DNA from: Heterodontus francisci
Taxonomy: Eukaryota
NCBI RefSeq assembly: GCF_036365525.1
Contig: NC_090393.1
Location: 54,576,488-54,640,487 of the forward strand
Length of the DNA: 64,000 nucleotides
Reading direction: 5' to 3'
A program made the position numbers and the translations under genes. Positions 13,727-51,200 of this stretch are shown here, piece after piece (the first letter of the stretch is position 1; the number at the start of each line of letters is the position of its first letter). The notes under the pieces were generated by a model, which saw only the letters and a program-made list of their open reading frames with translations, was not told the origin of the DNA and searched no databases.

Positions 13727-16700
13727 ATAGAGGATCTGGATCGGTGCAGGCCTGGAGGGCCGAAGGGCCTGTTCCTGTGCTGTAAATTTCTTTGTTCTTT
13801 GTTCTTTGTTCTTTGTTCTACTCCTCCATGTTGAACACCACTTGGAGGAAGCACTGAGGGTGGCAAGTGCACAAAATGTACTCTGGGTGGCGGTCTTCAA
13901 TGTCCATCACCAAGAGTGGCTCGGTAGCACCACTACTGGCCGAGTCCTAAAGGACATAGCTGCTAGACTTGGTCTGCGGCAGGTGGTGGGGGAACCAACA
14001 CGAGGGAAAAACATACTTGACCTCGTCCTCACCAATCTGCCTGCCGCAGATGCTTCTGTCCATGACAGTATTGGTAGGAGTGACCACCGCACAGTCATTG
14101 TGGAGACGAAGTCCCACCTTCACATTGAGGATACCGTCCATCGTGTTGTGTGGCACTATCACCGTGCTAAATGGAATAGATTTCGAACAAATCTAGCAAT
14201 GCAAAACTGGGCATCCATGAGGCGCTATGGGCCATCAGCAGAAGCAGAATTGTACTCAACCACAATCTGTAACCTCATGGCCCGGCATATCCCCCACTCT
14301 ACCGTTACCATCAAGCCAGGAGACCAATCCTGGTTCAATGAAGAGTGCAGGAGGGCATACCTCAAAATGAGGTGTCAACTTGGTGAAGCTACAACCCAGG
14401 ACTACTTGCACGCCAAACTTCATAAGCAGCATGCAATAGACAGAGCTAAGCCATCCCATAACCAACAGATCAGATCTAAGTTCTGCAGTCCTGCCACATC
14501 CAGCCATGAATGGTGGTGGACAATTGAACAACTAACTGGAGGAGGTGGCTCCACAAATATCCCCATCCTCAATGATGGGGGAGCCCAGCATATCAGTGTG
14601 AAAGATAAGGCTGAAGCATTTGCAACAATCTTCAGCCAGAAGTGCTGAGTTGATGATCCTTCTCGGCCTCCTCCTGAAGTCCCCAGCATCACAGATGCCA
14701 GACTTCAGTCAATTCGATTCACTCCACGTGATATCAAGAAAAGACTGAAGGCACTGGATACTGCAAAAGCTATGGGCCCTGACAATATTCCGGCAATAGT
14801 ACTGAAGACCTGTGCTCCAGAACTTGCCGCGCCCCTAGCCAAGCTGTTCCAGTACAGCTACAACACTGGCATCTACCCTGCAATGTGGAAAATTGCCCAG
14901 GTATGTCCTGTGCACAAAAAGCAGGACAAGTCCAACCCGGCCAATTACCGCCCCATCAGCCTACTCTCAATCATCAGTAAAGTGATGGAAGTTGTCATCA
15001 ACAGTGTCATCAAGTGGCACTTGCTTTGCAATAACCTGCTCAGTGACGCTCAGTTTGGGTTCCGCCAGGGCCACTCAGCTCCTGACCTCATTACAGCCTT
15101 GGTTCAAACATGGAGAAAAGAGCTGAACTCAAGAGGTGAGGTGAGAGTGACTGCCCTTGACATCAAGGCAGCATTTGAGCGAGTATGGCATCAAGGAGCC
15201 CTAGCAAAACTGAGGTCAATGGGAATCAGGGGAAAACACTCCGCTGGCTGGAGTCATACCTAGCACAAAGGAAGATGGCTGTGGTTGTTGACATCACTGC
15301 AGGAGTTCCTCAGGGTAATGTCGTGGGCCCAACCATCTTCAGCTGCTTCATCAATGACCTTCCCTCAATCATAAGGTCAGAAGTGGGGATGTTCACTGAT
15401 GATGGCACAATGTTCAGCACCATTCGTGACTCCTCAGATACTGAAGCTGTCCATGTAGAAATGCAGCAAAACTTGGACAATATCCAGGCTTGGGCTGATA
15501 AGTGGCAAGTAACATTTGTGCCACACAAGTGCCAGGCAATGACCATCTCCAACAAGAGAGAATCTAACCATCTCCCCTTGACATTCAATTGCATTACCAT
15601 CGCTGAATCCCCCACTATCAACATCCTAGGGGATACCATTGACCAGAAACTGAACTGGAGTAGCCATATAAATATCATGGATAAAAAGCAGGTCAGAGGC
15701 CAGGAATCCTGCGGCGAGTAACTACCTCCTGACTCCCCAAAGTCTGTCCACCATCTACAAGGCATAAGTCAGGAGTGTGATGGAATATTCTCCACTTGTC
15801 AGGATGGGTGCAGCTCCAACAACACTCAAGAAGCTTGACACCATCCAGGACAAAGCAGCCCGCTTGATTGGCACCCCATCTACAAACATTCACTCCCTTC
15901 ACCACCGACGCAGAGTGGCAGTAGTGTGTACCATCTACAAGATGCACTGCAGCAATGCACCAAGGCTCCTTAGACAGCACCTTCCAAACCCTCGACCTCT
16001 ACCAACTAGAAGGACAAGGGCAGCAAATACATGGGAACACCACCACCTGCAAGTTCCCCTCCATGTCACACACCATCCTGACTTGGAACTATATGGCCGT
16101 TCCTTCGCTGTCACTGGGTCAAAATCCTGGAACTCCCTTCCTAACATCACTGTGGGTATACCTACCCCAAATGGACTGCAGTGGTTCAAGAAGGCAGCTC
16201 ACCACCACCTTCTCAAGGGCAATTAGGGATGGGCAATAAATGCTGGCCTGGCCAGTGATGCCTACATCCCATGAATGAATGAAAAAGTTCTGGTCCCCAT
16301 GCTACAAAATGGGAATGGAAACACTGGAAGAAGTGTAGAAAGGATTCAAAATGCGGTTACTAGAATTTGGAGGTTGCAACTATCATAAAAATGAAATGAC
16401 TGGATTCCTTTCTTTGGAGAGATGAAGAATTGACATAATGGAGGTCTTCAGATTTATAAAGTGGTTCGCAAGGATGGACATGGAGAAATTGCTTCCACTT
16501 GTGTGTGAACCCAGAACAAATATGATAGCCACGAACAGATCAATTAAAGAACTTATATGAAAATATTAATTGGTAATTGTTTGGGAGATAGGAGACAGAG
16601 AATAGTGATTACGGGGCTGTTTGATTGGCCAGATTGACATGCCGTGCACCCTGGGGATTTGCATTGGGGCCTCACCTTTTCACCATTGGTATTAATGACT

Positions 16701-23034: not shown

Positions 23035-25958
23035 GGAAACTGGACGGACCACCTGGCATTGATCTAGGCATCGGAAATGACAATGGCAAACCCAGTCCTG
23101 TCGACCCTGCAAAGTCCACATTACTAACATCTGGGAGCTTGTGCCAAAGTGGGAGAGCTGTCCCACAGACTAGTCAAGCAACAGCCTGACATAGTCATAC
23201 TCACGGAATCATACCTTACAGACAATGTCCCAGACACCAGCATCACAATCCCCAGGTATGTCCTGTCCCACCGGCAGGACAAACCCAGCAGAGGTGGTGG
23301 CACAGTGGTATACAGTTGGGATGGAGTTGCCCTGGGAGTCCTCAACATCGACTCTGGACCCCATGAAGTCTCATGGCAACAGGTCAAACATGGGCAAGGA
23401 AACCTCCTGCTGATTACCACCTACCACCCTCCTTCAGCTGATGAATCAGTACTCCTCCATGTTGAACACCACTTGGAGGAAGCACAGAGGGTGGCAAAGG
23501 TGCTGAATGTACTCTAGGTGTACTCTAGACCTCAATGTCTAACACCAAGACGGCTCGGTAGCACCACGACTGACCAAGCTGGCCGAGTCCTAAAGGACAC
23601 AGCTGTGAGACTGGGTCTGCGGCAGGTGATGAGGGAACAACAAGAGGGAAAAACATGACCTCGTCCTCACCAATCTGCTTGCCGCAGATGCATCTGTCCA
23701 TGACAGTATTGGTAGGAGTGACCACCACACTGTCCTTGTGGAGATGAAGTCCCATCTTCACATTGAGGATACCCTCCATTGTGTTGTGTGGCACTACCAC
23801 CTTGCTGAATGGGATAGATTTCGAACAGATCTAGCAATGCAAAACTGGACGGCTATGACGCGCTGTGGGCCATCAGTAGCAGCAGAATTGTACTCAACCA
23901 CAATCTGTAACCTCATGGCCCGGCATATCCCCCACTCTACCATTACCGTCAAGCCAGGAGACCAACCCTGGTTCAATGAAGAGAGTAGGAGGGCATGCCA
24001 GGAGCAGCACCAGACAGACCTCAAAATGAGGTGTCAACCTGGTGAAACTACAACCCAGGACTACTTGTGTGCCAAACTGTGTAAGCAGCATGCGATAGAC
24101 AGAGCTAGGCAATCCCATAACCAACGGATCAGATCTAAGTTCTGCAATCCTGCCACATCCAGTCGTGAATGGTGGTGGACAATTAAACAACTAACTGGAG
24201 GAGGTGGCTCCACAAATATCCCCATCCTCAATGATGGGGGAGCCCAGCACATCAATGCAAAGGATAAGGCTGAAGCATTTGCAACAATCTTCAGCCAGAA
24301 GTGCCGAGTTGATGATCCATCTTGGCCCCCTCCTGACGTCCCCAGCATCACAGATGCCAGACTTCAGCCAATTCAGTTCACTCCACGTGATATCAAGAAA
24401 CGAATGAAGGCACTGGATACTGCAAAGGCTATGGGCCCTGACAATGTTCCGGCAATAATACTGATGACCTGTGCTCCAGAACTTGCCACACCCCTAGCCA
24501 AGCTGTTCCAGTACAGCTGCAACACTGGTATGCACCCGGCGATATGGAAAATTGCTCAGGTATGTCCTGTACACACAAAGCAGGACAAGTCAAGCCTGGC
24601 CAATTACCGCCCCATCAGTCTACACTCAATCATCAGTAAAGTGATGGAAGGTGTCATCAACAGTGCTATCAAGCAGCACTTGCTTAGCAATAACCTGCTC
24701 AGTGACGCTCAGTTTGGGTTCCGCCAGGGCTACTCAGCTCCTGACCGCATTACGGCCTTGGTTCAAACATGGACAAAAGAGCTGAACTCAAGAGGTGAGG
24801 TGAGAATGACTGCCCTTGACATCAAAGCAGCATTTGACCAATTATGGCATCAAGGAGCCCTAGCAAAACTGAAGTCAATGGGAATCAGTGGGGAAACTCT
24901 TCGCTGGTTGGAGTCATATCAAGTGCAAAGGAAGATGGTTGTGGTTGTTGGAGGTCAATCATCGCAGCTCCAGGACATCACTGCAGGAGATCCTCAGGGT
25001 AGTGTCCTAGGCCCAACCATCTTCAGCTGCTTCATCAATGACCTTCCTTCAATTATAATGGGGATGTTCGCTGATGATTGCACAATGTTCAGCATCATTT
25101 GCGACTCTTCAGTTACTAAAGCAGTCCGTGTCGAAATTCAGCACGACCTGGACAATATTCAGGCTTGAGATGATAAGTGGCAAGTAACATTCATGCCACA
25201 CAAGTGCCAGGCAATGACTATCTCCAACAAGAGAGAATCTAACCATCTCCCCTTGACATTCAATTGCATTGCCATCGCTGAATCCCCCACTATCAACATC
25301 CTGGGGATTACCATTGACCAGAAACTGAACTGCAGTAGCCATATAAATACTGTGACTATAAGAGCATGTCAAAGGCTAGGACTCCTGCGGTGAGTAACTC
25401 ACCTCCTGACTCCCCAAAGCCAGTCCACCATCTACAAGGCACAAGTCAGGAGTATGATGGAATACTCTCCACTTGCCTCGATGGGTGCAGCTCCAACAAC
25501 AGCCAACACCATCCAGGACAAAGCAGCCTGCTTGATTGGCACCCCATCCACAAACATTCACTCCGTCCACCACTGACGCACAGTGGCAGCAGTGTGTACC
25601 ATCTACATGATGCACTGCAGCAATGCACCAAGGCTCCTTAGACAGCACCTTCCAAACCCGCGACCTCTACCAACTAGAAGGGCAAGGGCAGCAAATGCAT
25701 GGGAACACCACCACCTGCAAGTTCCCCTCCAAGTCACACACCATCCTGACTTGGAACTATATCACCATTCCTTCACTGTCGCTGGGTCAAAATCCTGGAA
25801 CTCCCTTCCTAACAGCACTGTGGGTATACCTACCTCACATGGACTGCAGTGGTTCAAGAAGGCAGCTCACCACCACCTTCTCAAGGGCAATTAGGGATGA
25901 GCAATAAATTCTGGCCTGGCCAACGATGCCCACATCCCATAAATGAATAAAAAAAACA
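23035..25958 (+). mobile_element. CR1-clade LINE family B copy, lacking the tRNA-like head
   Basis: ORFs 23149-23517 and 23738-25168 are highly similar to the 8681-16286 copy. It has the same 3' tail plus an A-run. Confidence 0.92.
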
Positions 25959-27555: not shown

Positions 27556-29419
27556 TTTTTTAAAATTCATTCATGGGATGTAGGCGTTGCTAGCCAGGCC
27601 AGCATTTATTGCCCATCCCTAATTGCCCTTGAGAAGGTGGTGGTGAGCTGCCTTCTTCAACCGCTGCAGTCCATGTGAAATAGGTACACCCACAGTGCTG
27701 TTAGGAAGGGAGTTCCATGATTTTGACCCAGCGACAGTGAAGGAACGGCGATATAGTTCCAAGTCAGGATGGTGTGTGACTTGGAGGGGAACTTGCAGGT
27801 GGTGGTGTTCCATGTATTTGCTGCCCTTGTCCTTCTAGTTGGTAGAGGTCGCAGGTTTGGAAGGTGCTGTCTAAGACGCCTTGGTGCATTGCTGCAGTGC
27901 ATCTTGTAGATGGTACACACTGCTGCCACTGTGCGTCAGTGGTGGAGGGAGTGAATGTTTGTTGATGGGGTGCCAATCAAGCAGGCTGCTTTGTCCTGGA
28001 TGGTGTCAAGCTTCTTGAGTGTTGTTGGAGCTGCACCCATCCAGGCAAGTGGAGAGTATTCCATCACACTCCTGACTTGTGCCTTGTAGATGGTGGACAG
28101 GATTTGGTGAGCCAAGAGGTGAGTTACTCGCCTCAGGATTCCTAGCCTTTGACCTGCTCTTGTAGCCACGGTATTTATATGGCTACTCCAGTTCAGTTTC
28201 TGGTCAATGGTAGCCCCTAGGATGTTGATAGTGGGGGATTCAGCGATGGTAATGCGGTTGAATGTCAAGGGGAGATGGTTAGATTCTGTCTTGTTGGAGA
28301 TGGTCATTGCCTGGCACTTGTGTGGCGCGAATGTTACTTGCCACTTTTCATGCCAAGCCTGGATATTGTCCATGTCTTGCTGCATTTTGACACGGACTGC
28401 TTCAGTATCTGAGGAGTCACGAATGCTGCTGAACATTGTGCAATCATCAGCGAACGTCCCCACTTCTGACCTTATGATTGAAGGAAGGTCATTGATGAAG
28501 CAGCTGAAGATGGTTGGGCCTAGGACACTACCCTGAGGAACTCCTGCAGTGATGTCCTGGAGCTCAGATGATTGACCTCCAACAACCACAACCATCTTCC
28601 TTTGTGTGAGGTATGACTCCAGCCAGCAGAGAGTTTTCCCACTGATTCCCATTGACCTCAGTTTTGCTAGGGCTCCTTGATGCCATACTCGGTCAAATGC
28701 TGCCTTGATGTCAAGGGCAGTCACTCTCACCTCACCTCTGGAGTTCAGCTCTTTTGTCCATGTTTGAATCAAGGCTGTAATGAGGTCAGGAGCTGAGTGG
28801 CCCTGGCGGAACCCAAACTGAGTGTCACTGAGCAGGTTATTGCTAAGCAAGTGCCGCTTGATGGCACTGTTGATGACACCTTCCATCACTTTACTGATGA
28901 TTGAGAGTAGGCTGATGGGGCGGTAGTTGGCCAGGTTCGACTTGTCCTGCTTTTTGTGTATAGGACATACCTAGGCAATTTTCCACAGTGCAGGGTAGAT
29001 GCCAGTGTTGTAGCTGTACTGGAACAGCTTGGCTAGGGGCGTGGCAAGTTCTGGAGCACAGGTCTTCAGTACTATTGCCGAAATATTGTCAGAGCCCATA
29101 GCATTTGCAGTATCTAGTGCTTTCAGTCATTTCTTGATATCATGCGGAGTGAATCGAATTGGCTGAAGTCTGGCATCTGTGCTGCTGGGGACGTCAGGAG
29201 GATGCCGAGATGGATCATCAACTCGGCACTTCTGGCTGAAGATTGTTGCAAATGCTTCAGCCTTATCTTTCGCACTGATGTGCTGGGCTCCCCCATCATT
29301 GAGGATGGGGATATTTGTGGAGCCACCTCCTCCAGTTAGTTGTTTAATTGTCCACCAACCTTCATGGCTGGATGTGGCAGGACTGCGGATCTTAGATCTG
29401 CTCCGTTGGTTATGGGATC
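27556..29419 (-). mobile_element. CR1-clade LINE family B copy, 5'-truncated, inserted in an older minus-strand CR1
   Basis: RT ORF 27936-28889 (GVPQGSVLGP, FADD). The tail is at ~27556-27630. Confidence 0.92.
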
Positions 29420-31890: not shown

Positions 31891-32599
31891 AATGCATCAT
31901 CTGACATTGCTTTGTATTAAATTTCATCTACTGCTTGACTGCCTATTCTGCTAGCCTATCTAGGTCCTGTTGTAGTCAATTGGTATCATCCTCACTCTTT
32001 GCCACATCTCCAAGTTTGGTATCATTGGCAAATTTTGAAATTTTACTCTGTATTCCAAGATCCAAGTAATTTATACATATAAAAAAAAAGTGTTGTCATA
32101 GCACTGATCCTTGGGGACACCTTCCTCCTGTCTGAAAAACAACCATCTACCACAACTCACTGTTTCCTGTCCTTAGACCCCTTCTTGAACATTTGCCACC
32201 TCTGGCACCTCCTTCATACCTAAGGAATATTGGGAGGTTATGACAAGCCCTTCCGCTATCTCCACTCCCACTTCCATTAGCAATGTGGAATGCAAACTAT
32301 CTGGGCCTGGTGACGCATGCACTCTAAGCATATCCAGCCTTTCCAGTACATCCTGCCTATCAATTTTCACCCCATCCATTACCTCTACCATCACTGCTTC
32401 TACCAATATTTTGTCACCATCATCTTCCTTAGTGAACACTGATACAAAGTATTCAATAAGCGTTGTAGCCTTGCCCTGCACCTCTAACATATATCACCTT
32501 TTTTGTCCCTAATAGGCCTCAATCTGCCTCTTACTACCCGTTATTTACATGCCGGTAGAAGATTTTTGGGAGCCCTTTTATGTTAACTGTCACTCTCGC

Positions 32600-33837
32600 C
32601 TCAACACTGGAACTTAGCTCTCTTGTCCACGTTTGGACCAAGCCTGTAATTAGGTCTGGAGCTGAGTGAGCATCAGTAAGCAGGTTATTGGTAAGTACAT
32701 ACTACTTGATAGCATTGTCGACAACACCTTCCATCACTTTGCTGATGATTGAGAATACACTGATGGGTCAGTAATTGACCAGGTTGATTAGCCCTGCTTT
32801 TGCTTGACAGGACATACCCGGGCAATTGGTAGTTGTCAGTGTTGTATCTGTCACTGGGACAGCTTGCTGTATTTCTTGACATCATATGGAATGAACCTAA
32901 TTGGCTGAAGCCTGACATTTTTTTTATTAATTTCATAGGATGTGGGCTTTACAGGCAAGACCAGCATTTATTGCCCATCCCTAAATGCCCTTGAGAAGGT
33001 GGCAGTGAGCTGCCTTTTTGGACCGCTGCAGTCCATCTGGTGTGGGTACACCCACAGTGCTGTTAGGGAGGGAGTTCCAGAATTTTGATCCAGTGACAGT
33101 GAAGGAACAGTGATATAGTTCCAAGACAGGATGGTTTGTGGCTTGGAGGGGATCTTGGAGATAGAGGTGTTCCTATGCGTCTGCTGTCCTTTTCCTAGGT
33201 GGAAGTGGTCGTGGGTTTGGAAAGTGCTGTTGAAGGAGATGTGGTGAGTTGCTGCAGTGCATCTTGTATATGGGGCACACTGCTGTCACTGTGTACCAGT
33301 GGTAGATGGGGTGTTGATCAAGCAGGCTGCTTTGTCCTGGAGGGCATTTCTGAGTGTTGTTGGAGCAGTACTCATCCAGTCAAATGGAGAGTATTCCATC
33401 AGATTCCTTACTTGTGCCTTGTTGATGGTGGCCAGGCATGGGGAATCAGGAGGTGGGTTACTCGCTGTATTTCCATTGAATGTCAAGGGGAGGTGATTAG
33501 ATTCTTTCTTGTTGGAGAATGTCATTGTCTGGCGCTTGTGTGGCGTCAATGTTTCTTGCCACTTAACAGCTCAAGCCTGAATGTTGTACAGGTCTAACTG
33601 CATATGGATATGGACAGCTTTAGTATCTATGATGGTTGCGACCTCAGGAGGAGGCTGAGAAGGGCTGGCACTTCAGGCTGAAGATTGTTGTAAATGCTTC
33701 ACCCTTGTGTTTTGCACTCACATGCTGCGTTTCTCCCGCATTGAGGATTAGAATAGAAATGAAGCATCCTCCTCCCATTACTTGTTCACTTATTTACCAC
33801 CATTCACAACTATATTGGGCAGGACTGCAGAGTTTGA
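32600..33837 (-). mobile_element. Degenerate, rearranged family-B-like CR1 fragments
   Basis: Reverse-complement tail at ~32930-33000 and decayed RT pieces (KAQVRNLMEYSP, QDKAACLI). Confidence 0.7.
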
Positions 33838-35446
33838 TTCACTCGATTCACTCCGCGTGATATCAAGAAACGACTGAAGGCACTGGATACTGCAAATGCT
33901 ATGGGCTCTGACAATATTTCGGCAATAGTACTGAAGACCTGTGCTCCAGAACTTGCCGCGCCCCTAGCCAAGCTGTTCCAGTACAGCTACAACACTGGCA
34001 TCTACCCTGCAATGTGGAAAATTGCCCAGGTATGTCCTGTACACAAAAAGCAGGACAAGTCCAACCCGGCCAATTACCGCCCCATCAGCCTACTCTCAAT
34101 CATCAGTAAAGTGATGGAAGGTGTCATCAACAGTGTCATCAAGTGGCACTTGCTTTGCAATAACCTGCTCAGTGATGCTCAGTTTGGGTTCCGCCAGGGC
34201 CACTCAGCTCCCGACCGCATTACAGCCTTGGTTCAAACATGGACAAAAGAGCTGAACTCAACAGGTGAAGTGAGAGTGACTGTCCTTGATATCAAGGCAG
34301 CATTTGACCGAGTATGGCATCAAGGAGCCCTAGCAAAACTGAGATCAATGGGAATCAGTGGGAAAACTCTCTGCTGGTTGGAGTCATACCTCACACAAAG
34401 GAAGATGGTTGTGGTTGTTGGAGGTCAATCATCTGAGCTCCAGGACATCACTGCAGGAGTTCCTCAGGGTAGTGTCCTAGGCCCAACCATCTTCAGCTGC
34501 TTCATCAATCAATATGATTCCTTCAATCATAAGGTCAGAAGTGGGGATGTTCGCTGATGATTGCACAATATTTAGCACCATTTGTGACTCCTCAGATACT
34601 GAAGCAGTCCTTGTAGAAATGCAGCAAGACCTGGACAATATCCAGGCTTGGGCTGATAAGTGGCAAGTAACATTCGTGCCACACAAGTGCCAGGCAATGA
34701 CCATCTCCAACAAAAGAGAATCTAACCATCTCCCCTTGATATTCAATGGCAATACCATCGCTGAATCCCCCACTATCAACATCCTAGGGGCTACCATTGA
34801 CAAACTGAACTGGAGTAGCCATATAAATACCGTGGCTACAAGAGCAGGTCAGAGGCTAGGAATCCTGCGGCGAGTAACTCAACTCCTGACTCCCCAAAGC
34901 CTGTCCAACAACTACAAGGCACAAGTCAGGAGTGTGATGGAATACTCTCCACTTGCCTGGATGGGTGCAGCTCCAACAACACTCAAGAAGCTCAACACCA
35001 TCCAGGACAAAGCAGCCTGCTTGATTGGCACCCCATCTACAAACATTCACTCCCTCCACCGCTGATGCAGAGTGGCAGTGGTGTGTACCATCTACATGAT
35101 GCACTGCAGCAATGCACCAAGGCTCCTTAGACAGCACCTTCCAAACCCACGACCTCTACCAACTAGAAGGGCAAGGGCAGCAAATACATGGAACACCACC
35201 ACCTGCAAGTTCCCCTCCAAGTCACACACCATCCTGACTTGGAACTATATCACCATTCCTTCACTGTCGCTGGGTCAAAATCCTAGAACTCCCATCCTAA
35301 CAGCACTGTGGGTATACCTAGCCCAAATGGACTGCAGCGGTTCAAGAAGGCAGCTCACCAGCACCTTCTCAAGGGAAATTATGGATGGGCAATAAATGCT
35401 GCCCTGGTCAGCGATGCCCACATCCCTGAATGAATAATAAAAAAAA
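33838..35446 (+). mobile_element. CR1-clade LINE family B copy, 5'-truncated
   Basis: ORFs 33901-34557 and 34514-35065, with a 3' tail ending TGAATGAATAATAAAAAAAA. Confidence 0.92.
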
Positions 35447-35880
35447 CAAAGTAATTCATGACAACGCTACTTCATCGGACACGTCATCAGGATGTGCCGC
35501 GGTGCGCACATGCGCAGACGGTCTCATGCCCCTTGCGCATGCGCTGCGGTCCGGCTGACCAGGACCGCTTTGCGCATGCACAGATGACATGGTACGCGCA
35601 TGCGCGCACAGTCTCCTCATCTCTGCGCATGCGCTGCGGTCCGACCTGCCAGGACCGTTGTGCGCATGTGTAGATGACGTCATTGCGTTATTTCGTCTTC
35701 CTCGCTGACGCGCCAATTTGGCCTCTGCGCATGCGTCAAAGCTTCGGCGCCACTTTTTGAAAGTGGAAGGAGGGGAGGTTTCTCGCATTTTATCTGAATT
35801 ATTTATTCGTTTTGGAGACTTGCTTCATTTTTAATTGACACAGGAGATTGTTCGAAGGTAAGTTGCTCTGCCTTTGTATG

Positions 35881-36820
35881 TTGCTCTGAAAACATTTCCA
35901 TTGTCTGGGCCACCGCATGTTCTCCAGTCCCTGTTGTGAGTTGCTCTGAAAACATTTCCATTGGCTGGGCCACTGCATGTGCTCCAGTCCCTGTTGTAAA
36001 TTGCTCTGAAAACATTTCCATTGTCTGGGCCACCGCATGTTCTCCAGTCCCTGTTGTAAATTGCTCTGAAAACATTTCCATTGTCTGGGCCACCGCATGC
36101 TCTCCAGTCCCTGTTGTGAGTTGCTCTGAAAACATTTCCATTGTCTGGGCCACCGCATGCTCTCCAGTCCCTGCTGTAAGTTGCTCTGAAAACATTTCCA
36201 TTGGCTGGGCCACTGCATGTGCTCCAGTCCCTGTTGTAAATTGCTCTGAAAACATTTCCATTGTCTGGGCCACCGCATGCTCTCCAGTCCCTGTTGTGAG
36301 TTGCTCTGAAAACATTTCCATTGTCTGGGCCACCGCATGTTCTCCAGTCCCTGTTGTGAGTTGCTCTGAAAACATTTCCATTGGCTGGGCCACTGCATGT
36401 GCTCCAGTCCCTGTTGTAAATTGCTCTGAAAACATTTCCATTGTCTGGGCCACCGCATGTTCTCCAGTCCCTGTTGTAAATTGCTCTGAAAACATTTCCA
36501 TTGTCTGGGCCACCGCATGCTCTCCAGTCCCTGTTGTGAGTTGCTCTGAAAACATTTCCATTGTCTGGGCCACCGCATGCTCTCCAGTCCCTGCTGTAAG
36601 TTGCTCTGAAAACATTTCCATTGGCTGGGCCACTGCATGTGCTCCAGTCCCTGTTGTAAATTGCTCTGAAAACATTTCCATTGTCTGGGCCACCGCATGC
36701 TCTCCAGTCCCTGTTGTGAGTTGCTCTGAAAACATTTCCATTGTCTGGGCCACCGCATGTTCTCCAGTCCCTGCTGTAAGTTGCTCTGAAAACATTTCCA
36801 TTGTCTGGGCCACCGCATGT
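35881..36820. repeat. 60-bp minisatellite, 15 full units plus 40 nt, with a 7-unit higher-order repeat
   Basis: Unit TTGCTCTGAAAACATTTCCATTGKCTGGGCCACYGCATGYKCTCCAGTCCCTGYTGTRAR. 35881-36300 is identical to 36301-36720. Confidence 0.98.
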
Positions 36821-36822
36821 AG

Positions 36823-37735
36823 CAGGATGAAGGCACAGTGACTGTGATTTCTGGCGCCAAACAGTACACACTGCAGATACATGATGGCCAGGCTACCTGC
36901 AGCTGCATCTTCTCCATTCAGACTTTGTTGCCCTGCAAACATGCTGTTGTTGTGCAGAGGCATCTGGGTCTGCCTTTGGACAGGCTCGCCCCAATTGTCG
37001 TTGGCGGGCATCTCAGACACCAACGACGACAGGCATGGCTGCTGCCATTGTGATTCAGCCACAATGAAAAATACCGCTTGCTTTCAGATCAATTGTACCA
37101 GCTACAACAGGCCGTTCTGCAGAGTGGAACGGCAGCGTTCATGAGGAGATTGGACTGGCTGCGGCAACAGACTCTCCGCTGGCAGCAAGGACTGGCTGAT
37201 GAGATGGAGCCATTTACTATGCCCAACAATTGCCCGGAAGCACCTTCGGATGGAGGTGGCCGCGCGCTGGACATCAGTCACGTGTCACAAACCCTGGATC
37301 CTGAGCGTCTCACCCCCTGGCCTAATGATCTGATGGACCATACATATGCCTGCCTGTTCAAATCTCCACTTCCCCTACCTGCGGTACCCTCTCCTTGCTG
37401 CTCAGTTACAGTCACCTGCTCCTACACCCATCAGGGCAGTGCACATGGACACACAGTTACCTGCTCCTACACCCATCAGGGCAGTGCTCATGGACACACA
37501 GCCACCTGTTTCCCCATCCGACGTTGAAACAACCATGCAGAGCCTTGTGAGACTCCGCAATTGCCAGTTGCTGCCTGTCAAGCAGAGAGGGCGTCCAAAG
37601 GGGTCAAGCACTTGGGGAACATTCAGCAAGAAGAGACTGAGCACTAAAAGAAACAAGCATGCCGTGTCCAGTGGTAGCAGAAATGTGAATGCTCTTGCTG
37701 TGAACACAACTGGTGATAGTAGTAGGCAGGATTAA
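36823..37735 (+). pseudogene. C-terminal half of a SWIM zinc-finger (MULE/ZSWIM1-3-like) transposase
   Basis: ATCSCIFSIQTLLPCKH fits SWIM CxCx(n)CxH. In the same frame past a TGA comes HNEKYRLLSDQLYQLQQAVLQSGTAAFMRRLDWLRQQTLRW, and later LPVKQRGRPKG plus a basic tract. No DDE core is seen. Confidence 0.72.
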
Positions 37736-37930
37736 ATGGGAATGGATGGAAAGACGCACGAGTAACATAACCACTGGCAGGGAACTGCTGGGCTAAATGG
37801 CCAGCTTTATGTTCATAGCCCAAAAGAAATGTGCTTCTTTTCCAGCACCCTCACATCATTCATGTTTTCCCTGAGAGCAGCATTGAACCATCACGAGATA
37901 GGGGCAGTAACATCATCCTGCCTCCTACAG

Positions 37931-38380
37931 CTGAGGTGGGTACTAAGTGATTCATTGGTGGTGTTATCAGTACATGCCTTTACCGCAGAACACAAAGCAT
38001 GCTCAACAGTAATTTCATTGGAGGGAGGGAAGCTCTGACACTGATGTTCTTTCCTTATTTTCTTTCATGTAAAACGTGCCCTTGAGAAAACAATCCTTGA
38101 CACTTAAGGACGGCATTCAAGCAAAGGAGGCAGTGCGGGAGAGGACGCAAGGATGTGCTGATTCCTGCATCTGAGGTGGGTAATAAGTGCTTCATTGGCG
38201 ACGTTATCAATTGGTGCCTTCACTGCAGAACTTAAAAAGGTGTGCGCAACAGTAATTTCAGTGGATGGAGGGAGGCAAGCTCTGACTCTGATTTGCTTTA
38301 TTTCTTTTCATGTAAAACATGCCGTCGAGAAAACAATCCTCGAGACTTACGGTCAGCATTCAAGCAACGAAGGCAACTAG
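37931..38380. repeat. Diverged ~240-bp tandem duplication inside the MULE-like element
   Basis: CTGAGGTGGGTA.TAAGTG.TTCATTGG occurs at 37931 and 38171, and the copies are colinear through AAAACAATCCT.GA.ACTTA.GG. Confidence 0.85.
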
Positions 38381-38789
38381 ATCATGCTGCGAAGCTCATC
38401 ACGATGTGGAAAGGAACATTGCATTTATGGATGAATTGGGAATGCACATTGGGATGCACTTGGGGAACATTCACCAAGAATAGACTGAGCTCAGACTCTT
38501 GTGACTTTGCCTTCTTCACATGGACAATACAGTAGTGGAATAGAGAGCCAAGCGTTTATTCACCACAAGGCTCTCCAGGAACAATCTCTTTAGCTGTGCA
38601 TAGCAGAGACTCGGCCTGTCTGTCTCACGGGAATGCTGGACACAACACTCATGTATCCATGCATAGCAGTTCCTCGGATACTTAATGAACTTAATAAAAC
38701 TTTTCAATAATTAAACCCAGAATTGTTGAGGTTTTGTTTTGCATGCTATTTCCCCGACTTTGCAACTGCACTTCAGATATTCAACTATG

Positions 38790-39555
38790 GTGGGGGGGTA
38801 GAAGGAGGGGTGGGTGAAGAGGGGGAGGGGTGGGGAGAGCGGGGAGGGGTGGGGAGAGCGGGGAGGGGTGGGGAGAGGGAGCATGCAAAATGCAGGACCA
38901 AACAGTTGCAATGCCTGAAGTACTGAGGAGAAGTAGAGAAAGCAACTGGGTAGGGGAGAAAGCAACTGGATTGGGCATCCGCAGCTGGAGGGAACGGCTG
39001 AATGGAGAGGGCCGGAAGCGAGAGGCCGTAGAGAGCCGCGGGGAGCGAGCGTGCGAAGACCTTGGTGTCACCGGGTCCAGGGACTGGCCAGTAAGTCTTT
39101 TGCTGTTGTGTTTATGGCGCATGCACAGAAAAAGGCGCTCCTCTTCCGTTCCACTGCTCCCCCCCCCACTCTCTCCCCCAGCTCTCTCCCTCCCCCCTTC
39201 CTTACCCCTCCCTCTCCCTCTTTCTCTCCCCCTCCCCCTCTTTCTCTCCCCCTCCCCCTCTATCTCCCCCTCTCTCTTTCTCCCCCTCCCCCTTCCTTAC
39301 CCCTCCCTCTCCCCCTTTCTCACCCCCCTCCCTCTTTCTCCCCCCCTCCCTCTTTCTCCTCCCTCTCCCTCTTTCTCCTCCCTCTCCCTTCCCCCTCCTC
39401 GCCCCCCGTGCTGCTGTCCCCGGCCCCCGCGCTGCTGTCCCCGCCCCCCGTGCTGCTCTCCCCGGCCCCCGCGCTGATCTCCCCGGCCCCCACGCTGATC
39501 TCCCTGGCCCCCGTGCTGATCTCCCCGGCCCCCGCGCTGGTCTCCCCGGCCCGCT
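38790..39555. repeat. G-rich tract (38790-38880), C/T-rich tract (39155-39400) and ~21-bp CCCCGYGCTGMTSTCCCCGG repeats (39403-39555)
   Basis: Directly visible low-complexity and short tandem sequence. Confidence 0.9.
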
Positions 39556-40489
39556 CCACTCTCTCACTCCGCCCATTGTATTCTGCCACGTGTTTGTCAG
39601 GTTTCATCTCTGTGATTCTTTGAGCAGCGCCATCTTTAGTCCTGGCAGCTGCTACAGTCGCAATCTGTGACGTTTTCGTGGCACATGCTGTATTTGCGCA
39701 TGTGCCAAAACTGCGCCACCTACCGATCGCGTTGTCAACAATTGCGGTCTAAAAAAAAATCTGATCTATTGATTGTGGGGTCGTTTTGTTCTGTCTACAG
39801 CATACTGCTTCCATTGTTTAGCATGCATTTCGTCCTGTGTTTTAGCTTCACAAGTCTTACACCTCACTTTTAGGCACACCTAGTGTTGCTCATGGTATGC
39901 TATTCTACATTCCTAATTGAACCAGTGTTAGTTCCCTAGCCTGATGGTGTTACAAGAGTGAGGTCATGAGGGTACAGATTGTGGTTGAATATAATTCTGC
40001 TGCTGTTGATGTCTCATGGTGCCTCAAGGATACCCAGTTTTGAGCTTCTAAATCTGTTCTGAATCCATCCCATTTTGCATGGTAGTACTGATACACAACA
40101 CGATGGAGGATGTCATCACTGTGAAGAGTTTTTGTCTTTACAAGTGTGGTGGTCACTCCTATCAATGCTGTCATAGACAGATGCATCTGCAACAGAGAGG
40201 TTGGCGAGGACGAAGTAAGGTAGGTTTTCCGCCATGGTGGCTCTCTCCCTTCCTGTTGCAGGCCCATTCTCAAAGCAGATGGGTTTTTGCCACAATCTGC
40301 TAGTTTTGTGTTCATTATTACTGAGACTAACTCTTAAAAAAAAAAATCGAGATTTATTTAATTAACTGAATTAAAATTCTCCAGCTGCCTTTTATGATGA
40401 AAGGACACAGACCTGAAACGTTAACTCTGTTTCTCGCTCCACAGATGCTACATGACCTGCTGCATAATTGCAGCACTTCTGGTCTTATT

Positions 40490-50308: not shown

Positions 50309-51200
50309 AGGCAAGTAACATTCGCACCGCACAACTGCCAGGCAATGACCATCTCCAACAAGAGAGAATCCAACTATAATAATAAAGCAAAATACTGCGG
50401 ATGCTGGAAATCTGAAATAAAAACAAGAAATGCTGGAACCACTCAGCAGGTCTGGCAGCATCTGTGAAAAGAGAAGCAGAGTTAACGTTTCGGGTCAGTG
50501 ACCCTTCATCGGAACTAACCAAGAGAATCTAACCATCTTCCTTTGACATTCAATGGCATTACGATCGCTGAATCCCCCACTATCAACCTCCTGTGGGTTA
50601 CCATTGACCAGAAATTGAACTGGAGTAGCCACATAAATACCGTGGCTACAAGAACAAGTCAGAGGCTAGAGATCCTGCAGTGAGTACTCACCTCCTGACT
50701 CCCCAAAGCCTGTCCACCATCTACAAGGTACAAGTCAGGAGTGTGATGGAATACTTTCCACTTGCCTGGATGGGTGCAGCTCCAACAACACTGCAGAAGC
50801 TCAACACCATCCAGGACAAAGCAGCCCACTTGATTGGCACACCATCCACAAACATTTACTCCCTCCACCATCGACGCACAGTGGCAGCAGTGTGTACCAT
50901 CTACAAGATGCACTGCAGCAACGCACCAAGGCTACTCAGGCACAACCTTCCAAACCCACGACCTCTAACAGCTAGAAGGACAAGAGCAGCAGATGTGTGC
51001 GAACACCACCACCTGCAAGTACCCCTCCAAGCCACACAACTTCCTGGAAATCCCTTCTTAACAGCACTGTGGACGTACCTACCCTACATGGACTTCAGCG
51101 GTTCAAGAAGGCAGTTCACCATCACCTTCTGAAGGGCAATTTGGGATGGGCAATAAATGCTGGCCTGGCCAGCAGCACTCATATTCGATGAAGTGAATAA
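50309..51200 (+). mobile_element. LINE family B 3' fragment, interrupted by a ~145-bp Penelope-derived insertion (50375-50521)
   Basis: Family B RT end and tail. The insertion is flanked by AGAGAATCYAAC at 50363-50374 and 50522-50533. Confidence 0.85.
50480..50516 (-). ncRNA. Minimal hammerhead-ribozyme-like motif (Penelope-associated), with one core variant
   Basis: Minus strand AGTT-CCGATGA-A-GGGTC-ACT-GACCC-GAAA-CGTT-AACT gives stem I AGTT/AACT, stem II GGGTC/GACCC, and GAAA. The core reads CCGAUGA instead of CUGAUGA. Confidence 0.65.

What the first reader, a model, noticed from the sequence alone, without database searches (positions are those of the whole stretch)
35447..39749. A 4.3-kb Mutator-like element with short imperfect TIRs and a 9-bp TSD, whose catalytic core is missing and whose position is occupied by a minisatellite
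Seen: a CpG-rich block bounded by in-register imperfect inverted ends (15/21, core TGACAACGC/GCGTTGTCA) and flanked by TAAAAAAAA on both sides, sitting in the A-tail of a LINE. Inside are a SWIM finger, a helical KY...RL..L...W segment and an RGRPK motif. Established: a 9-bp TSD, AT-rich targets, SWIM and a C-terminal RGRP motif typify MULE transposases, and the vertebrate ZSWIM1/3 genes resemble this family. Inference: this is a non-autonomous derivative of a possibly uncatalogued chondrichthyan MULE family, younger than the LINE it sits in. An A-run is a weak TSD, so the boundary call rests mainly on the register match.
Basis: partly seen in the sequence, partly recalled or inferred. Interest (0 to 1): 0.72.

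Follow-up and report, generated by a model that had tools for sequence, protein, structure and literature searches.

The report
Shark Mutator transposon with intact parent
This is a shortened copy of a Mutator-type jumping gene that lacks its cutting enzyme; hundreds of copies in this shark genome share the same deletion and were likely moved by full-length relatives whose enzyme gene still looks intact, in a transposon group whose presence in vertebrates had been doubted.

Summary
The element is real. Its ends recur at the same register across a 6.0-Gb shark genome (1,931 left-end and 1,393 right-end motif matches), with exact 9-bp AT-rich target duplications in 35 of 48 complete copies. It is a non-autonomous Mutator (MULE) derivative; 290 sites share its exact deletion junction. 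Full-length 5.5-7.2-kb parents exist: 12 of 23 mapped copies predict an unbroken 811-1,052-aa transposase with DDE, CxxH and W motifs (Pfam MULE, ZSWIM1-3 RNaseH-like; closest solved fold IS256-family ISCth4). Correction: the 60-bp minisatellite did not replace the core. It is an intron repeat already in the parent, and a 2,150-bp deletion starts inside it. A 2019 survey asked whether MULEs are absent from vertebrates; this family says no, though Repbase/Dfam could not be checked and current activity is not shown. Side finding: one old copy lacking two catalytic residues keeps an intact, spliced, transcribed reading frame and groups with white- and basking-shark proteins, a likely domesticated gene. 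This scan noted a Mutator element in another probable shark genome before.

The parts
33838..35437 (+). Host LINE, 3' part (reverse-transcriptase remnant and 3' tail); the element sits in its A-rich tail
   Evidence: PF00078 hits E 9.7e-27 and 1.7e-6; three paralogues in the window 91-94% identical over 1.6 kb; same tail ...CCCACATCCC.TGAATGAAT-A(n) in five other window copies
35438..35446 (.). Left target-site duplication TAAAAAAAA
   Evidence: family-wide 9-bp rule
35447..35467 (+). Left terminus (21 bp; 15/21 match to the right end)
   Evidence: 1,931 exact matches of the degenerate left-end motif in G000, control 0
35468..35760 (+). CpG-island-like left subterminal region: ten GCGCATG/CATGCGC motifs (NRF1-like, motif recalled), one TGACGTCA, a 90-bp duplication; likely promoter and/or transposase-binding sites
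   Evidence: 10 core motifs in 35509-35733 against 5 in the other 59.7 kb of the window; CpG o/e 1.27; D6; function inferred
35761..35857 (+). Likely non-coding first exon (5' limit unknown) ending at splice donor AAG|GTAAGT, GT at 35858
   Evidence: donor found at the same place in 22 of 23 mapped parents, G at +1 intact in most; aligns with the donor that RNA contigs use in the old copy L181
35874..36820 (+). 60-bp minisatellite, 15.8 copies; an intron repeat of the parent, expanded here
   Evidence: 0-12 units in parents, 1-22 in junction-bearing siblings
36815..36825 (+). Deletion junction (36820/36821): 2,150 bp of the parent removed (rest of intron, exons 1-2, N-terminal zinc finger, whole DDE core)
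   Evidence: exact 24-mer at 290 sites, control 0; same 2,150-base skip in a run contig
36821..37735 (+). Transposase 3' remnant: SWIM finger (36880-36954), helical segment, 45-bp coding repeat (37408-37508), RGRPK (37586-37600), stop; broken by a 1-bp loss near 36989, a 23-bp loss at 37054 and a frame change at the 45-bp repeat
   Evidence: pairwise alignment with L161
37736..38698 (+). Likely 3' untranslated region with a 243-bp duplication (37923-38375) and the element's only AATAAA (38693)
   Evidence: shared with parents; role inferred
38780..39728 (+). Right subterminal region: G-rich 19-mer, C/T-rich tract, 21-bp repeat, two GCGCATG motifs, one YY1-like CGCCATCTT (motif recalled)
39729..39749 (-). 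Right terminus (21 bp)
   Evidence: 1,393 exact matches of the degenerate right-end motif, control 0 (some are internal copies)
39750..39758 (.). Right target-site duplication TAAAAAAAA

Best explanation
This is a non-autonomous, internally deleted copy of a Mutator-like (MULE) DNA transposon family of a shark, which was likely moved by cut-and-paste in trans by the transposase of full-length copies in the same genome. Shown: fixed termini, 9-bp AT-rich target duplications, one shared 2,150-bp deletion amplified to at least 290 sites, and 5.5-7.2-kb parents with a four-exon gene whose product has a ZSWIM3-type N-terminal zinc finger, an RNase H-like D-D-E core with CxxH and W, a SWIM finger, a 15-residue repeat and RGRPK. 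Inferred: a parent lost its core through a repair event that began in the intronic 60-bp repeat (5-bp CATGT likeness near both breakpoints); both ends survived, so parent transposase could still bind them, excise the element (by analogy with Muta1, through hairpins on the flanking DNA) and insert it with a 9-bp staggered cut in A/T-rich DNA such as LINE tails. The two ends differ yet each is nearly invariant across copies, so recognition likely rests on the 9-11-bp core plus end-specific subterminal sites. The SWIM/RGRPK remnant is a passenger decaying neutrally.
For: Termini and TSD: and 7 exact plus 1 one-mismatch TSD among the 8 complete elements of a 17-locus sample taken from the left-end motif list, not by likeness to the window. 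TSD 88% A/T against 58% in flanks. Shared junction: 16 of 20 siblings incl. the window, 290 exact sites. Parents: 131 scored matches of the DDE core, 516 candidates; 28 of 40 fetched loci had both ends; 12 of 23 exon-mapped copies give an unbroken protein with D, D, CxxH, E motifs and RGRPK (two of the 12 share flanks). Pfam on L161 exon 3: PF21056 E 4.9e-28, PF10551 MULE E 4.8e-17. D151, D215, C236/H239, W299, E326 are at least 90% conserved in a 14-sequence alignment. AlphaFold model pLDDT 76; the five best PDB matches are ISCth4 (E 2.5e-9), then Hermes. Intron 2 (378 nt, GT..AG) is skipped in contigs of 2 of 4 probable RNA runs; all three homologous introns are skipped in 4 of 4 runs at the old copy (one sample). 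Window copy 0.73% from its subfamily majority and 0.71% majority-to-L161. Private changes are near neutral in both groups (synonymous 19 of 62, 19 of 57 and 31 of 89 non-CpG; 26-28% expected), as expected of transposon copies rather than a host gene family.
Against: No transposition, excision or binding was observed. No empty allele of this locus was tested. The inverted repeat is far shorter and poorer than the typical MULE TIR (>100 bp, PMC5499845 passage). 4 of 48 complete elements lack a TSD within one mismatch and 4 of 20 siblings did not show the junction motif. Parents were picked as best protein hits, so 12 of 23 overstates intactness in the family. The microhomology is imperfect (five parent bases next to it are also missing). 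RNA status of the runs is a guess by the tool, though GT..AG joints support it; intron 0 and intron 1 joints were not seen for the young family.
Confidence: 0.95

Rival explanations
1. The minisatellite inserted into, or grew in place of, the catalytic core.
For: In this copy the repeat abuts the SWIM exon remnant directly.
Against: The same repeat lies at the same place, upstream of the ATG exon, in full-length parents; siblings with 1 to 22 units share one junction.
Confidence: 0.01
2. The copies are duplicates or retrocopies of a host ZSWIM3-like gene, as the database names suggest.
For: [quoted passage not shown]
Against: Introns are retained, ends are fixed, each locus has its own 9-bp TSD, private mutations are near neutral, and there are more than a thousand end motifs.
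Confidence: 0.02
3. It is a transposon of another SWIM- or long-TSD superfamily (Zisupton/KDZ, hAT, P).
For: Short TIRs; Hermes (hAT) is the second fold match. Zisupton carries SWIM and occurs in fish (recalled).
Against: TSD is 9 bp, not 8 (0 of 48 exact at 8); Pfam gives MULE and no KDZ, hAT or P model at E 0.1 or 0.01; ISCth4 outranks Hermes by four orders.
Confidence: 0.02

Closest known systems
Animal MULE/MuDR transposons with SWIM finger (Dupeyron et al. 2019, PMC6446971; abstract and passages incl. Table 1 read)
   Same: DDE transposase, zinc finger plus SWIM, 9-bp TSD (8-11 bp range), variable TIR (14-500 bp), minisatellites noted in Rehavkus and aphid Phantom
   Different: Vertebrate host, where that survey found no credible MULE transposase; ends only 15/21 alike; two separate variable repeats (intron and coding). 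Clade placement not tested: their alignment (supplement) was not read.
Muta1 of Aedes aegypti (Liu and Wessler 2017, PMC5499845; abstract and passages read)
   Same: DDE, (C/D)xxH 15-45 aa after the second D (here 21), W before E, 8-9-bp TSD, natural non-autonomous derivatives with asymmetric ends
   Different: Muta1 has a 145-bp, 97% symmetric TIR with 12-bp subterminal repeats and a 504-aa enzyme; this family has about 21-bp degenerate ends and an 811-1,052-aa predicted enzyme. Muta1 activity is shown, this is not.
Vertebrate host genes ZSWIM1, ZSWIM3, ZSWIM9/DUF5575 (Pfam PF21056, PF21599, PF21600, PF17738, PF20783)
   Same: Same domain string: ZSWIM3_N, RNaseH-like, helical, SWIM
   Different: Those are fixed host genes; this is a multi-copy element with ends and TSDs. 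No mammalian ZSWIM sequence came back from the searches, so their place in the tree was not tested; nearest non-shark named relatives are invertebrate (molluscs, ticks, crab, acorn worm, lancelet; about 27-41% identity).
Ricksha (human) and zebrafish MuDR-1/2/3_DR Repbase entries (PMC5753468, PMC6446971, PMC9004415; passages read)
   Same: Earlier vertebrate repeats filed as MuDR; 437 MULE-MuDR protein fossils counted in human
   Different: Old or fragmented, and their identity was doubted in 2019; the shark family has whole reading frames with all catalytic motifs.
IS256-family ISCth4 transposase (PDB 6xg8, 6xgx, 6xgw)
   Same: Best structural match of the predicted core (E 2.5e-9)
   Different: Bacterial copy-out/paste-in enzyme, 11-14% identity, TM-score only 0.3-0.4; no SWIM

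Membership tests
MULE/Mutator superfamily | 8-11-bp target-site duplication | tested here: met
   9 bp exact in 35 of 48, within one mismatch 44 of 48; 7 of 8 exact in a second sample
MULE/Mutator superfamily | DDE transposase matching the MULE domain (in the autonomous partner) | tested here: met
   PF10551 E 4.8e-17 above cut-off; D151, D215, E326 conserved; fold nearest ISCth4
MULE/Mutator superfamily | (C/D)xxH 15-45 aa after second D, and W upstream of E | tested here: met
   C236-H239 is 21 aa after D215; W299 before E326; definition from PMC5499845 passage
MULE/Mutator superfamily | Zinc-finger DNA-binding domain(s) | tested here: met
   SWIM above cut-off in the window; ZSWIM3_N E 6.1e-10 in P0001 and 6.4e-4 (below cut-off) in the near-identical P0003
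MULE/Mutator superfamily | Terminal inverted repeats (typically long; 13-1,193 bp reported; non-TIR families exist) | tested here: inconclusive
   Only 15/21 in register, nothing beyond 23 bp: atypical, but inside the reported range
MULE/Mutator superfamily | Placement inside MULE in a tree with curated references | not tested
   Tree used only database hits; reference alignment not read
MULE/Mutator superfamily | Cut-and-paste activity with flanking hairpins | not testable with these tools
   Inferred from Muta1
Non-autonomous deletion derivative | Shares both ends with an autonomous element, lacks the catalytic core, amplified as a unit | tested here: met
Zisupton/KDZ or hAT | 8-bp TSD and the matching transposase domain (features recalled) | tested here: not met
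   0 of 48 exact 8-bp TSD; no such Pfam hit
An already catalogued Repbase/Dfam family | Sequence match to a catalogued consensus | not testable with these tools
   Neither library is held
Domesticated transposase gene (side locus L181, P0001) | Single copy, intact frame, expressed, catalytic loss, shared across species | tested here: inconclusive
   Nearest paralogue 81%; no frameshift or stop in 855 aa while 9 of 9 siblings have 3-12 frameshifts in under 1.05 kb; spliced in 4 of 4 runs; groups with white-shark P0006, SH-aLRT 94, quick tree. But synonymous share 0.39 is barely above siblings' 0.24-0.38 and synteny was not testable

The most novel reading that the evidence does not exclude
Sharks carry a native, long-resident Mutator lineage of the ZSWIM1/3/9 type that still has intact transposase genes in this genome, the first clear autonomous MULE described in a vertebrate, and that lineage was domesticated again in galeomorph sharks into a spliced, catalytically dead ZSWIM3-like gene driven from the element's own first exon: a replay of how ZSWIM1/3/9 may have arisen, with the mobile ancestor still available for biochemistry.
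Probability: 0.45. Interest if true: 0.75.

Novelty: new member of a known kind. Interest (0 to 1): 0.58.

Why it matters
The copy itself is an ordinary non-autonomous transposon. [quoted passage not shown] Its transposase has the domain string of the little-understood vertebrate genes ZSWIM1/3/9, so it offers a mobile counterpart for testing what these domains bind and cut, and shows that several shark 'ZSWIM3-like' gene annotations are transposon copies. Transposition with ends only 15/21 alike is a natural test of how MULE transposases read asymmetric ends. More than a thousand CpG-rich left ends with a splice donor could also act as scattered promoters (untested).

Tried and rejected
Minisatellite-replaced-core reading: rejected. 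Idea that the deletion junction (TAG/CAG) makes a new splice acceptor for exon 0: no such joint among contigs laid on L170; contigs cannot show absence, left open. Run search listed no holder on record as RNA; four runs guessed as RNA, one sample, were used. Pooled pN/pS 0.29 among parents was set aside because shared subfamily differences count repeatedly and copies were picked by protein score; the private-mutation count replaced it. The SWIM column read False throughout because my pattern had the wrong spacing; SWIM rests on Pfam instead. One search ended in a script error after printing what was needed. (bacterial promoter scan) was uninformative. An empty allele was not tested; no read-laying runs remained and the copies are probably fixed. 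No left terminus or TSD was found at the old locus L181. An independent mini-element bounded by two right ends was looked for in 5 loci and not found. The careful tree did not finish; the quick tree is cited. Dating: at 7e-10 per base per generation (PMC10587355, abstract), 0.3-1% from the majority means millions of generations, so 'currently active' is not claimed. Literature: ten searches found no description of a shark MULE family or of ZSWIM genes as domesticated Mutator transposases; subscription journals, Repbase Reports and Dfam are not covered; one paper sought by id was not held; no supplements were read.
Full report
Observation. The window shows TAAAAAAAA at 35438-35446 and 39750-39758 around a 4,303-bp segment whose ends match at 15 of 21 positions. 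A 60-bp repeat of 15.8 copies spans 35874-36820. The frame at 36823 hits Pfam SWIM above its cut-off (E 7.5e-5) and the upstream frames hit reverse transcriptase. CpG enrichment is confined to the two ends.

Boundaries. The own genome is 6.0 Gb. The left and right ends gave 1,759 and 1,978 candidates, 40 scored each at 95-100% identity; exact degenerate end motifs occur 1,931 and 1,393 times with reversed controls at 0. Of the first 20 sibling loci fetched, 19 had both ends at the window's register, 1.8-5.3 kb long. Across 48 complete elements (window, 19 siblings, 28; two pairs share flanks) a 9-bp duplication is exact in 35 and within one mismatch in 44; 8 and 10 bp give 0 exact, and mismatched flank pairs give 16 of 2,256. 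TSDs are 88% A/T against 58% in flanks. In 17 loci taken from the left-end list, 8 had both ends callable, 7 with exact TSDs and 1 with one mismatch; these show several other internal deletions. The weak A-run TSD is therefore real, and another copy (L169) sits in the same kind of LINE tail.

The parent. The SWIM peptide found loci with long open frames; their core gave 131 scored matches of 516 candidates. Of 40 loci fetched, 28 had both ends, 26 of them core-bearing. Reading L161 gave a gene model: non-coding exon 0, an intron holding the 60-bp repeat, an ATG exon, a second short exon and a long third exon. In 23 copies where all coding splice sites mapped, 12 give an unbroken 811-1,052-aa protein with DGT, DKD, CQFxV, RIESEN and RGRPK; two more keep the four core motifs but shift frame in the tail, two have a changed motif, seven are truncated. 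These copies were chosen as best hits, so this is not the family-wide rate. Exon 3 hits ZSWIM1-3 RNaseH-like (E 4.9e-28), MULE (4.8e-17) and DUF5575. D151, D215, C236/H239, W299, E326 and the SWIM ligands are at least 90% conserved among 14 aligned relatives, matching the MULE signature given in PMC5499845 (passages). The predicted fold (pLDDT 76) is nearest to ISCth4, then Hermes. Contigs of two of four probable RNA runs (one sample) skip the predicted 378-nt intron at GT..AG, and NCBI models P0001 and P0003 use the same junctions.

How this copy arose. Relative to L161 the window lacks 2,150 bp from the last minisatellite unit to just before the SWIM finger. Sixteen of 20 siblings show this junction with 1-22 repeat units, while parents carry 0-12 units; the exact 24-mer occurs 290 times. 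So one deletion was followed by amplification, and the repeat is a variable intron feature, not a replacement. CATGT occurs at the left breakpoint and five bases before the right one, suggesting microhomology-assisted repair (inference). The remnant has since taken a 1-bp and a 23-bp loss. Seventeen junction-type copies lie 0.3-1.7% from their majority (window 0.73%), which is 0.71% from L161; the closest independent parents differ by 0.18%. The host LINE is 91-94% identical to three window paralogues, so the element is younger. Private mutations are near neutral in derivatives and parents alike. With the shark rate of 7e-10 per generation (PMC10587355, abstract) even these small distances mean millions of generations; present-day activity is not shown.

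Mechanism. Shown are the anatomy and footprints above. Inferred, by analogy with Muta1, is cut-and-paste by parent transposase acting in trans, with a 9-bp staggered target cut in A/T-rich DNA; the RGRPK motif, kept in most full-length invertebrate relatives, may serve as an AT-hook (recalled function). The two ends differ from each other but each is almost invariant among copies, which argues for end-specific recognition around the TGACAACGC core. The left end has ten GCGCATG motifs against five in the other 59.7 kb; they may be host promoter sites (NRF1-like, recalled) or transposase sites.

Host and relatives. The top database hits are named 'ZSWIM3(-like)' of Heterodontus francisci (74-96%), and P0001 matches G000 at 100% over 748 aa, so the host is the horn shark. 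Relatives occur in white shark, basking shark and a sawshark and form one clade (support 100 in a quick tree of 22 rows); the next named relatives are invertebrate at about 27-41% (20 of 150 representatives looked up, 9 clusters carried names). This fits long residence in sharks but does not exclude old transfer.

Side finding. P0001 lies at G000:C24 (L181). Its nearest paralogue is 81% identical; its first D and its E motif are altered; it has no frameshift or stop while 9 of 9 siblings carry 3-12 frameshifts each in under 1.05 kb. Contigs of all four runs splice introns of 411, 92 and 1,375 nt at GT..AG with almost no differences from the locus, and its exon-0 donor aligns with the window's donor at 35858. 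It groups with the core-less white-shark protein P0006 (SH-aLRT 94), whose 90% cluster includes basking shark. Against: its synonymous share (0.39) is hardly above its siblings' (0.24-0.38), the runs are one sample, and synteny is untested. I rate domestication at about 0.7.

What is known. Dupeyron et al. 2019 (PMC6446971; abstract and passages) found no credible vertebrate MULE transposase and list this as open question (vi). Human Ricksha is filed as MuDR (PMC5753468 passages) and 437 MULE-MuDR protein fossils are counted in human (PMC9004415, one passage), so vertebrate traces are known. The ZSWIM family paper (PMC10236294 passages) mentions MuDR only as the origin of the SWIM name. A 2026 arthropod survey reports TIRs of 13-1,193 bp and says nothing on vertebrates (PMC13359780 passages). 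Ten searches found no account of a shark family; Repbase and Dfam could not be searched and supplements were not read, so prior cataloguing is quite possible.

Verdict. A real non-autonomous MULE (confidence 0.95), a new member of a known kind. The interest (0.58) comes from its intact vertebrate parents and the likely domesticated copy, not from the window copy itself.

Noticed in passing
L181:5220-9929 (G000:C24, about 10.591-10.596 Mb): Old single copy of the family (P0001, XP_067912888) with intact 855-aa frame, altered D and E motifs, three spliced introns in 4 of 4 probable RNA runs, and look-alikes in white and basking shark: likely domesticated transposase gene.
   Followed up: partly
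L197:3144, L198:2567, L199:2446, L211:4191, L212:3019 (site equals window 38337/38338): Another deletion subfamily carries an inverted copy of about 23 bp of the right terminus inside its 3' region, creating a nested segment with near-perfect inverted ends; no independent movement of that segment seen in 5 loci.
   Followed up: partly
L161:3916-6996 and other parents; window 37408-37508: The transposase tail holds a 45-bp coding repeat (15 residues, PAPTPIRAVHMDTQL) that varies from about 2 to more than 30 units among copies and is stop-free in more than one frame.
   Followed up: partly
G000:C16:86.40-86.47 Mb (L112-L114, L213-L216): Five full-length copies 15-17 kb apart share flanks and the TSD TATCAAGAA: a tandem segmental duplication, 98-99.9% identical, not five insertions.
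   Followed up: yes
L184-L200: At least five other internal-deletion types and an older left-end variant (CAAAGTGATTCC...) exist; the family has several subfamilies from under 1% to about 25% diverged.
   Followed up: partly
window 14714-16280, 24377-25953, 27565-29157, 32586-33628, 50521-51173: Further copies of the same LINE in both orientations, 79-94% identical to the host LINE.
   Followed up: partly
window 39760-40260: The right flank resembles an old dispersed repeat (66-75% to flanks in L020, L042, L047); not identified.
   Followed up: no
P0002, P0003, P0008: Database gene models named ZSWIM3(-like) or uncharacterised in this species are fragments of this transposon.
   Followed up: partly
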